Assembly (NCBI RefSeq): GCF_018350175.1
Contig: NC_058369.1
Coordinates: 12,834,001-12,898,000 of the forward strand
Direction: 5' to 3'
Length of the DNA: 64,000 bases
From: Felis catus
Lineage: Eukaryota
Part shown: in pieces, positions 865 to 31,158 of the stretch
How the letters are laid out: each line of letters opens with the position of its first letter
How positions within the stretch are numbered: the stretch's first letter is position 1
Notes under the pieces: generated by a model
Seen by the model: only the letters and a program-made list of their open reading frames with translations
What the model was told of the DNA's origin: nothing
Database searches by the model: none
Translations under genes and position numbers: made by a program

Positions 865-946
865 CAGGTCTGGGCAGCCCCGGCACCCACAGTCACCTGG
901 GAGAGCAGCAGAGAGGACCCGGCACCCCATCGGAAAAACTGTACCG
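865..946 (+). CDS. MYO9B: MYO9B exon, loop-2 insertion (AGLGSPG...SEKLYR)
   Basis: CAGCAG tandem acceptor (start 865 or 868), donor CG|GTGAGC, phase 1 to 2. Confidence 0.9.
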
Positions 947-2059
947 GTGAGCGAGACCTTGATTTGTCCAAACCGCAGCTAGTATGCCGTGGCAGTAATT
1001 GTTTCAAACAATGCCAGAAACCCTACACCCTGAACCCAGGTTGGGGTTGACCTGGATAAGGAACTCAACTGCCACGTGAATCAAAAAGGACCCAGAAACA
1101 AATGGCATCTGGTTGCCGCTTTTCTGCACACAGAAAGACAGGCCTCCATGCATCAGCTGCCTTCGGGAGATGTTGCACGGCTCACTTTACAAAGGATTCT
1201 TTTCACGGCCGGTCATGGCCATTGGCGGGTGGGGCCCAGAAGCTGCTGGTTGCACCGAGCAACAGGCTTGATTGAAGAGCACATCCTGCCCTAGGCTGGC
1301 CGGGGTGTCCTGAAAGAGATATGCCGAGTCACTTCATGTGTCATTGCACGCAAGAGGATGAGGGTATTTTGTGGCCACGGGCCTCCCACATACCCCAGTT
1401 TGTACTGAATGTAGAAGTGAGCAGCGAGTACTCTCAGGAAGGTGGGGTTACAAAAAAAAAAAAAAATAGGCCATACTGGACAGACATCCAAGGCAATGAC
1501 AAAGCCAGGGGAGGGACACTTCTGGTGTCTTGAGAGAGTCAGGCAGGCTGTACTGAGAAGGGACCAGTTGAGCCAGACGAGGCAGGCAGGGTGTGCTGGC
1601 AGGTGCGGGCGGCACATGCAAAGGCCCTGCGGCAGCCAAGTTCCCAACGTCTTTCTCAACACTCACAAATACCCAAGGAGCAGGCCAGTAAATATTGAAA
1701 CTTGAAAAGATCATTTTATGTTTGAGCCCTTCACAACAAAAACCTCTTCAAGAGATTCATAACAACGTACGCGTTGGAGGTGGAACTAGCTACCGAGGCA
1801 AGTGACCCTAAGTCATTTGTCTGAAAGCACCGCGTGTCCTTTTCCTGGTTTTACGAGGTACATTTTTAAATCCACTTTTTCACCCAAAAGGGGGCAAGAG
1901 AAAAACGAACACCTCTCTTTATTTGCTTGTGTGTTTTCCCCCCACCACAAAGACCGAACGTGGCCCCTGACCCACATTCGCTGGAGTGACGCCAGTCTCC
2001 CCAGGGCCTGGCCCCTAGGCTGCGGGTCCCCATTCCAGGACCGCGTTTAGTTTACACAG

Positions 2060-2112
2060 GTTCGATATTAACGCTTTTGAGGACACATCATTGCTTTCTA
2101 TGAAAGCAAGAA
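2060..2112 (+). pseudogene. MYO9B: Frameshifted relic of the MYO9B loop-2 cassette exon (FDINAFED / IIAFYESKN)
   Basis: TTTACACAG| acceptor and AA|GTAAGG donor; removing AC at 2085-2086 gives an in-phase peptide resembling the recalled rodent Myo9b insert. Confidence 0.7.
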
Positions 2113-2821
2113 GTAAGGAGAAGCAAGGGCCTTCGAACCCGAGACCAGGAAGGCACACAGAGGAGCCGCCGTCCCCAGGCGCTCAGCGTGGCGTCCAGGG
2201 CCAGGAGTGGGGATCCGCAGGCTATGGGGGTGCCGGGGCCTGCTGGGAGCACTCTAGCCAGATTTAGCGGGGTCGGGAAGCAGGGAGGGGAGCGCGGGTT
2301 GAAGCCATAGGCCTTGTCCAGAGCTCTGGGCGCTGCGCTGACCGCTCGGGGGGTGGAGGTGAAATGTGACCCCTCTGTTGTCTTTGCTCTGTGCCTCCCT
2401 GGAGGGCGAGGGAGCAGAGGTAAGTGTGGCTGTCCAGGCCCTAGGCATGGTGCATGGAACACAGACCGGGGACTGCCGGTCGGGGTCTTTCCAGGCCAAC
2501 TGCCCAGAGCTTAAACATGTATTTGAAATAACTGGAATGAGGAATTTTTAGAAAGAAACAAAACAAACCCAGAACCTCCCGACTCCTCCCGCAGTCACCG
2601 GCACCTCGTTCCCAGAAACCCCATGAGGACATTTGTCATCTAGACATCCTTCATGAATCCTCACTTTCAGAGCATCTGATTTTCATCTGTGATCCATTCT
2701 TGTTCTCACGCGTCGGTGCCGAAGTGTGGGCCCGGAACATACGCCCCGCCCTGAACCCCCAGGAATTGAACGAAAGGAAGTGAATGAGATTGACTTCTTT
2801 GGGGCAAAGATCTCCTTCAAC

Positions 2822-3055
2822 TAGGGTCTCCCACCCTCACCACTGGGCCGGGCCACTCTCTGTGGTGGGACCGTCCCTTGTACTGGAGGGGGTCGAGCAG
2901 CATCCCGGCCAGATGCCAGGAGCACCGCCCCACCCACCCCCCCGCCCCAAGTCATGACAACCATAAATGTCTCCATAAATGTCAACCATTTATGTCTCCA
3001 AAACATAAATGCCTTGCCCGGAGGGTAGCATCTCAAGCCGCTGGTGGAGAACCAC
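2822..3055 (-). mobile_element. MER20-like DNA transposon fragment
   Basis: AGCAGCATCCCGGCC...AGATGCCAG...GACAACCATAAATGTCTCC...GAGAACCAC; internal CCATAAATGTC duplications. Confidence 0.6.
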
Positions 3056-3514
3056 CGTGCGAATCCTGGTCCGCTCCTCCTGAGGCCTTTCTCGAAGCCG
3101 ACACGGAGGTTGACGTGTGGCCACAGAATCCTCAAGAAAAACCGAGGGGCTACCTCCCACCGGCACCCTCTGGTCCTTTCTTTTCAGTAGCCCCTGATGC
3201 CTTGTCACAGATTCCAGAAGCCTGTTCTACGTGAGGCCTTTTTCAGTGATCTGAGCCGCCAGGTTGCAAAACCCATTCTGCCCGGAGCGACCCTGGCCCT
3301 CCCAGAGAAGGGGGAGCCACTCTTGGCCGAACCCCGCCCCCCCCTCCCCAGTGCAGGATGGAGAGACCGTGGCGCACACGCTCGCCAGCTGCATGTTTCG
3401 GCTCCAGTGGCCTGGGGAGGGTCCCGACCGCGCTGGGGACCCCAAGGTGGCGGGCCTGCTGCTCTAACTCGGTCTTCTCCCTGTCACTGCGCCCCTCCCC
3501 CTCCCCACTCTCAG

Positions 3515-3628
3515 CGATTTGCATGACCAAATCATCAAGACCATCAAAGGATTGCCCTGGCAGGGTGAGGACCCCCGTAGGCTTCTCCAGTCCCTCAGTC
3601 GGCTCCAGAAACCCCGCACCTTCATCCT
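3515..3628 (+). CDS. MYO9B: MYO9B exon ([21 protein letters not shown]...PRTFIL)
   Basis: CTCAG| acceptor, |GTGAGT donor, 114 nt, phase 2 to 2. Confidence 0.95.
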
Positions 3629-5074: not shown

Positions 5075-5114
5075 GAAAAGTAAAGGTATCAAACAAAAGC
5101 AGCTCATTCCAAAG
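5075..5114 (+). CDS. MYO9B: MYO9B 40-nt exon (KSKGIKQKQLIPK)
   Basis: GACAG| acceptor, AAG|GTAAAC donor; ACTAAC-type branch candidates near 4984 and 5010. Confidence 0.93.
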
Positions 5115-6219: not shown

Positions 6220-6342
6220 AACCTGCTGGACTCCAAGTCGCTGAAGCTCATCATCAGCATGACGCTGCACGATCGCACCACCAAGTCCCTGCTGCACCTA
6301 CACAAGAAAAAGAAACCGCCGAGCATCAGCGCCCAGTTCCAG
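6220..6342 (+). CDS. MYO9B: MYO9B exon ([10 protein letters not shown]...PPSISAQFQ)
   Basis: AG/GT bounded, 123 nt, class IX myosin motif. Confidence 0.96.
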
Positions 6343-23925: not shown

Positions 23926-23973
23926 CCATGGCCTCTCAAACTGGGGTTTTCGTCTCCCTATGAGGGGGTCCTG
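23926..23973 (+). CDS. MYO9B: MYO9B 48-nt cassette exon (PWPLKLGFSSPYEGVL)
   Basis: Phase 0/0, CCCAG| and |GTATGT; peptide matches the recalled human alternative exon. Confidence 0.92.
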
Positions 23974-30975: not shown

Positions 30976-31158
30976 ACCCTGTCGCACTCACTCAAGATGG
31001 CTGACCAGAACCTGGAGAAGCTGAAGACGGAGTCGGAGCGGCTGGAGCAACACACGCAGAAGTCGGTCAACTGGCTGCTCTGGGCCATGCTTGTTATCGT
31101 CTGCTTCATCTTCATCAGCATGGTCCTCTTCATCCGCATCATGCCCAAACTCAAATAA
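30976..31158 (+). CDS. USE1: USE1 exon 8, SNARE end and C-terminal transmembrane anchor (TLSHSLK...MPKLK*)
   Basis: Hydrophobic [21 protein letters not shown]; total CDS 783 nt = 260 aa. Confidence 0.97.

What the first reader, a model, noticed from the sequence alone, without database searches (positions are those of the whole stretch)
2039..2118. Frameshifted MYO9B loop-2 cassette exon with intact splice sites: dead exon or poison exon
Seen: between two phase-2 loop-2 exons lies TTTACACAG|G TTC GAT ATT AAC GCT TTT GAG GAC [AC] ATC ATT GCT TTC TAT GAA AGC AAG AA|GTAAGG. Without the extra AC (2085-2086) it reads FDINAFEDIIAFYESK and joins exon 3515 as ...N-DLH in frame. With it the exon is 53 nt (74 nt from a second acceptor at 2039), and inclusion creates TGA exactly at the 3628/5075 junction, a predicted NMD target. 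Recalled, unverified: rodent Myo9b has an insert ...DVNAFEDIMAFYESRN-DLHNQ at this position, in the loop-2 extension linked to actin and calmodulin binding. Inference: this lineage lost the coding exon but may retain it as a regulatory exon.
Basis: partly seen in the sequence, partly recalled or inferred. Interest (0 to 1): 0.8.

Follow-up and report, generated by a model that had tools for sequence, protein, structure and literature searches.

The report
Cats lost a conserved MYO9B exon
In this cat-family genome, a 30-amino-acid optional piece of the motor protein myosin IXb that is nearly unchanged from turtles to hyenas has lost its splice entry site and first 13 codons and gained a frameshift, so it is likely a dead exon rather than a regulatory 'poison' exon.

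Summary
The letters are as described: 2060-2112 holds the last 16 codons of a MYO9B loop-2 alternative exon, split by an extra AC. Inclusion gives TGA at 3628/5075-76. The splice sites are not both intact. The orthologous exon is 90 nt (30 aa, net charge -7), identical in hyena, meerkat, seals, bears and pig, and barely changed in turtles, lizards and echidna. An orthologous intron reading frame from another mammal shows that 2039-2059 is old intron. An inferred ~53-nt deletion at 2059/2060 removed the real pyrimidine tract, acceptor and first 13 codons. Both 'acceptors' are leftover intronic AGs, and all 8 AGs tested give a premature stop. None of 6 felid proteins (5 species) has the exon, against 16 of 17 other carnivoran species, a biased sample. 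Read data gave no coverage over the exon, so inclusion is untested. Verdict: dead exon (~0.8), probably lost across Felidae; poison role ~0.1. The acidic exon would weaken MYO9B's basic actin tether, so cats are likely a natural knockout of that isoform.

The parts
868..946 (+). Upstream MYO9B loop-2 exon (ends ...SEKLYR in phase 2); tandem NAGNAG acceptor at 865/868
   Evidence: isoforms with and without one Ala
1802..2059 (+). Intron collinear with the orthologous intron of another mammal (Logan ORFs P0257/P0258); 2044-2058 reads RLVYT in both
2037..2038 (+).
2051..2055 (+). TTTAC, likely the old branch point (about 19 nt from the ancestral acceptor, now 5 nt from the AG at 2058-59); inferred
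   Evidence: branch-point spacing from general knowledge
2058..2060 (+). Deletion junction 2059|2060: an intronic AG now abuts exon base 40; about 14 intron nt plus 39 exon nt missing (inferred, ~53 nt)
   Evidence: 13 of 13 residues compatible; 0 of 500 shuffles reach it
2060..2112 (+). Remnant of alternative exon A: last 16 codons, no amino-acid change, plus a 2-nt insertion
2085..2086 (+). Extra AC (micro-duplication), frameshift
2113..2118 (+). Retained donor GTAAGG (score 6.3; the gene's own donors score 2.5-12.5; 97th percentile of decoy GTs)
2451..2456 (+). TGCATG (RBFOX-type motif, label from own knowledge) downstream of exon A; two more at 3390 and 3520
   Evidence: 3 of 8 such sites in the first 26 kb lie in 2451-3525
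3515..3628 (+). Loop-2 exon B (114 nt, basic); skipped in 'A only' isoforms of other mammals
5075..5114 (+). Next exon; premature TGA forms across 3628/5075-76 if the remnant is included
6220..6342 (+). Following exon; premature TGA at 6242 if the remnant is included and exon B skipped

Best explanation
This is the frameshifted remnant of a conserved 90-nt alternative exon of MYO9B loop 2 whose real acceptor and first 13 codons were likely removed by one ~53-nt deletion, so it is likely skipped and decaying neutrally, likely across the cat family. Shown: the remnant, the +2 insertion, a premature stop by every splice route tested, and an intact, near-invariant exon in hyena, meerkat, caniforms and other amniotes. 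Inferred: the single deletion, skipping in vivo and the Felidae-wide date. Predicted role of the intact exon: 30 residues of net charge -7, added to or swapped for the basic exon B. This lowers loop-2 net charge from +20 to +13/14 (A+B) or +10/11 (A only), which would weaken the electrostatic actin tether and the processivity of the motor in the tissues that include it. Cats can no longer encode those isoforms.
For: Exon A identical over 29 residues in 20 of 22 non-felid carnivoran proteins that have it; the 2 badger proteins differ at 1 residue. It is present in primates, bats, rodents, afrotheres, marsupials, echidna, turtles and squamates. Deletion: P0257/P0258 are collinear with 1802-2058. 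One DNA string can encode both their tail and the pig model's ILPFS|CSMLDFSF with 14 nt between the conserved G and the exon start (13 of 13 residues; shuffles max 10, 0 of 500). 2039-2060 fits the exon's 5' codons no better than shuffles (151 of 300). All 8 AGs from 1953 to 2060 give a stop with or without exon B. 0 of 6 named felid proteins (Puma, two Lynx species, Panthera onca, Leopardus) carry A, against 22 of 27 proteins and 16 of 17 species of other carnivorans; the insert-blind subset is 0 of 6 against 9 of 12. No named felid is among the 120 listed of 132 hits to the insert query. Charges are; loop 2 as an electrostatic actin tether is from PMC3887004.
Against: The donor is retained, and both leftover AGs score inside the range of the gene's real acceptors (4.5 and 4.7 against 2.4-15.6, a crude matrix from 27 sites). 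The 16 remaining codons are unchanged. No read covered the exon, so skipping is not shown. The ancestral intron was inferred from translated ORFs of one unnamed species plus one pig gene model, not from DNA. Felid absence rests on 6 annotated isoforms, and felid isoforms with A could hide among the 277 members of one cluster, of which 15 were listed per call. The non-felid tally is inflated because one search used the insert as query, and related species are not independent. The charge-switch role has no direct test; the structure model of the loop was uninformative (pLDDT 44.9).
Confidence: 0.78

Rival explanations
1. The remnant is still included, through the AG at 2058-59 or 2037-38, in tissues that once made the acidic isoform, and now acts as a selected poison exon that lowers MYO9B by NMD.
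For: Donor retained; cryptic acceptors score 4.5-4.7; every route gives a premature stop with 24 exon blocks downstream; TGCATG motifs at 2451, 3390 and 3520 remain; no substitution visible at the protein level in the 3' part.
Against: The pyrimidine tract and true acceptor are deleted, and the likely branch point is too close to the new AG. Lack of change is expected under neutrality (P 0.34 for loss at the felid stem, 0.71 at the crown, 0.12 at twice the rate). No junction was seen, although the test was blind.
Confidence: 0.1
2. The exon is dead here, but the loss is recent (Felis or part of Felinae), and other cats keep it or lost it separately.
For: No DNA of another felid was seen; zero amino-acid changes fit a recent loss.
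Against: Proteins of Panthera onca, Puma, Lynx and Leopardus lack A. The Leopardus isoform numbered X3 is only 2146 aa and lacks both A and the 16-aa tail exon, which leaves little room for longer A isoforms (numbering by length is from own knowledge).
Confidence: 0.09
3. The lesions are an assembly error or a private allele.
For: The AC was not seen in raw reads; 8 of the 9 runs at share 1.00 may be sources of this DNA.
Against: Two separate lesions are present; 14 DNA-like runs in 8 studies hold 0.97-1.00 of the words; sampling missing both lesions has P about 0.015; other felids lack the isoform.
Confidence: 0.03

Closest known systems
Lineage-specific loss of a conserved alternative coding exon (pseudoexon), the exon-level counterpart of gene loss (class from own knowledge)
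   Same: Intact and constrained in sister groups, with splice-site deletion and frameshift in one lineage, while the gene stays whole
   Different: This exon is near-invariant across amniotes; no description of it or of its loss was found in 9 literature searches
Poison exons / unproductive splicing (e.g. PMC10123112, search listing only)
   Same: Inclusion would create a premature stop far upstream of later junctions
   Different: No inclusion shown, native acceptor deleted, no sign of constraint
Class IX myosin loop-2 insertion as electrostatic actin tether (PMC3887004, passages read)
   Same: Same loop; basic (net +20 in the cat-type isoform)
   Different: [quoted passage not shown]
CELF2/RBFOX2-regulated MYO9B exon (PMC5538552, passage and supplement row)
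   Same: Alternative exon of the same gene
   Different: It is a 48-nt exon, matching the 16-aa tail exon at 23926-23973, which is intact in this window

Membership tests
MYO9B orthologue | Exons match MYO9B (myosin head, IQ, C1, RhoGAP) | tested here: met
Dead (pseudo)exon | Orthologous exon intact and conserved in sister lineages | tested here: met
   hyena P0168, meerkat P0081/P0188, caniforms
Dead (pseudo)exon | Inactivating lesions in frame and splice site | tested here: met
   +2 insertion; acceptor deletion inferred; stop by all 8 routes
Dead (pseudo)exon | Not included in mRNA | tested here: inconclusive
   no reads over 1996-2179 in 2 RNA runs, about 1-2% of each read; the tool drops human-like reads
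Dead (pseudo)exon | Neutral evolution after loss | tested here: inconclusive
   0 of 16 changes is compatible with neutrality; no other felid DNA
Poison exon | Inclusion makes a premature stop well upstream of later junctions | tested here: met
Poison exon | Functional native splice sites | tested here: not met
   native acceptor deleted; only cryptic AGs and the donor remain
Poison exon | Regulated inclusion that rises on NMD block | not testable with these tools
   no such runs offered
Poison exon | Purifying selection on the non-coding remnant | tested here: inconclusive
Mutually exclusive exon pair (A/B) | Exactly one of two exons is used | tested here: not met
   A+B 115, B 66, A 30, neither 5 among 216 classified proteins (17 unclassified, 22 without anchor dropped; biased sample): two independent cassettes

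The most novel reading that the evidence does not exclude
In cats an ancient coding switch became a degradation switch: cells that in other amniotes insert an acidic segment to loosen MYO9B's actin tether now include the broken remnant through a cryptic acceptor and destroy the mRNA, reaching a similar drop in tethered RhoGAP activity by NMD.
Probability: 0.08. Interest if true: 0.72.

Novelty: new member of a known kind. Interest (0 to 1): 0.42.

Why it matters
An exon kept almost unchanged across mammals, turtles and lizards would be expected to be indispensable, yet this felid cannot encode it. It points to an acidic alternative segment in the MYO9B actin tether, not found in the literature searched, with a simple testable prediction: lower actin affinity and run length. 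Cats would be a natural knockout of these isoforms. Exon loss itself is a known process, and no phenotype is linked, so interest is moderate.

Tried and rejected
1) My first idea, that 2039 is the ancestral acceptor with gradual 5' erosion, was rejected: the remnant scores like shuffles and P0257/P0258 show it is intron. 2) Laying reads: one search gave no coverage of the exon in 4 of 4 runs; the DNA runs yielded only short repeat-like pieces; no joints were listed. This is not evidence either way, and junctions into exon B could not be examined. 3) A paralogous exon in MYO9A: none found in the 50 kb spanning its loop-2 exons (profile search, best score 0.6 bits). 4) Mammalian DNA in metagenome contigs: 0 hits with two motifs; 14 viral hits match only the motif. 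5) A search with four window frames for felid ORFs: 38 candidates, none at E<=10, with a diffuse profile; 3 of 3 window ATG ORFs not in the collection. 6) Templated origin of 2039-2060: no match of 9 nt or more nearby. 7) AlphaFold model of the seal fragment: pLDDT 44.9, unused; no MYO9 head among the 60 PDB hits shown of 72. 8) Earlier scan findings: none relevant. 9) Struchholz 2009 and PMC5206537 were not held.

Full report
Setting. Window 868 to about 25,800 holds the 3' part of MYO9B. Its loop-2 and head exons match a Leopardus protein at or near 100%, the variable tail exon differs by 2.6-3.3% from four felids and 14% from meerkat, and RNA runs holding the stretch include 'feline metagenome'. 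The genome is a felid, most likely domestic cat. The site is single-copy in G000.

Observation. The letters, the 53- and 74-nt lengths, the extra AC and the TGA across 3628/5075-76 are confirmed. Skipping keeps the frame. With the donor at 2112, all 8 AGs between 1953 and 2060 lead to a premature stop, with or without exon 3515-3628.

The orthologue. Protein searches (75 of 89 and 120 listed of 132 candidates) show a 30-residue insert between SEKLYR and DLH, that is a 90-nt phase-2 exon (A). It is identical in seals, bears, most mustelids, fox, hyena, meerkat, pig, whales, mole and elephant, and differs at few positions in bats, macaques, squirrels, marsupials, echidna, turtles and lizards. 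Isoforms with A+B, B only, A only or neither all occur (115, 66, 30, 5; 17 unclassified and 22 without anchor of 255 held; biased towards A). Most are computational annotations; one A-only protein comes from a 7.3-kb Logan contig (P0169). Birds, amphibians and fish were not among the listed hits; the two human proteins seen lack A, which settles nothing. No counterpart was found in the MYO9A loop-2 region.

The 5' lesion. Only the last 50 nt of the exon align without mismatch, and 2039-2060 fits the first 13 codons no better than shuffles. An exhaustive search with the intron frame 1790-2047 gave 2 hits; P0256, a 16-residue repeat-like match, was not followed. P0257 and its cluster mate P0258 (unnamed Logan contigs of 8.6 kb) are collinear with 1802-2058 and share RLVYT with window 2044-2058. 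Their tail and a pig gene model that runs from the intron into exon A (P0015) can be encoded by one DNA string in two frames: 13 of 13 residues, shuffles at most 10, 0 of 500 (12 of 14 for P0257). This places a 14-nt pyrimidine tract ending in AG between the base equivalent to 2059 and the true exon start. The cat therefore lacks about 14 + 39 = 53 nt at 2059|2060 (inferred). The branch-point-like TTTAC at 2051-55 was about 19 nt from the true acceptor and is now 5 nt from the nearest AG, too close by general knowledge of splicing. By coincidence the deletion alone would have left a 51-nt in-frame piece; the AC breaks that too. The order of the two events is unknown.

Real and how old? Reads could not show the lesions: one search had zero depth at 1996-2179 while intronic RNA reads covered both sides, and the tool warns that such holes can be its filter. 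Word sharing supports them indirectly. 0 of 6 named felid proteins from 5 species, spanning Panthera and Felinae, have A, against 22 of 27 proteins and 16 of 17 species of other carnivorans; the insert-blind comparison is 0 of 6 against 9 of 12 (isoforms and kin are not independent). A loss on the felid stem is likely but not shown at DNA level.

Dead or poison. For poison: a retained donor, cryptic AGs within the low range of real sites, premature stops, and TGCATG motifs near A and B. Against: the native 3' splice site is deleted, and the unchanged 16 codons are expected without selection (tail-exon branch lengths 0.047 for the stem and 0.021 for the crown; P 0.34 and 0.71, or 0.12 at double rate). 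I put dead at about 0.8 and poison at about 0.1.

What the exon did (inferred). PMC3887004 (passages) shows the basic loop-2 insertion is an electrostatic actin tether needed for processive movement. Loop-2 net charge is +20 with B, +13/14 with A+B and +10/11 with A only, so A would weaken the tether. The RBFOX-type motif positions would fit an A-for-B switch in neurons or muscle; this is untested.

Literature. Nine searches found no description of this exon or its loss; most subscription papers are not covered. Seen: PMC3887004, PMC13622658 and PMC10048575 (passages); PMC5538552 (passage and supplement rows; files 1 and 13-16 not searched), whose MYO9B exon is a 48-nt exon, not this one; others as listings only. 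Struchholz 2009 was seen only as cited; it and reviews not held may mention loop-2 splice forms.

Verdict. A real, lineage-specific death of a deeply conserved alternative exon: new member of a known kind, interest 0.42.

Noticed in passing
window 865-868: Tandem NAGNAG acceptor (CAGCAG) giving plus or minus one Ala; both forms are annotated in many mammals
   Followed up: partly
window 23926-23973: 48-nt alternative tail exon is intact; likely the CELF2/RBFOX2-regulated MYO9B exon of PMC5538552
   Followed up: partly
window 1168-1466: Pile of sense intronic RNA reads ending at a genomic A-run (1451-1466) in an oligo-dT library; likely internal priming
   Followed up: no
window 3380-3514: Intron upstream of exon B, including TGCATG at 3390, appears conserved in translated ORFs of several unnamed mammals (P0001-P0006, P0024)
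   Followed up: no
P0178, P0180 (Thomomys, Dipodomys): Exon A and exon B are both more diverged in these two rodents than in other mammals, perhaps relaxed constraint
   Followed up: no
window 30991-31155: Last exon of USE1 downstream of MYO9B (Pfam Use1)
   Followed up: no
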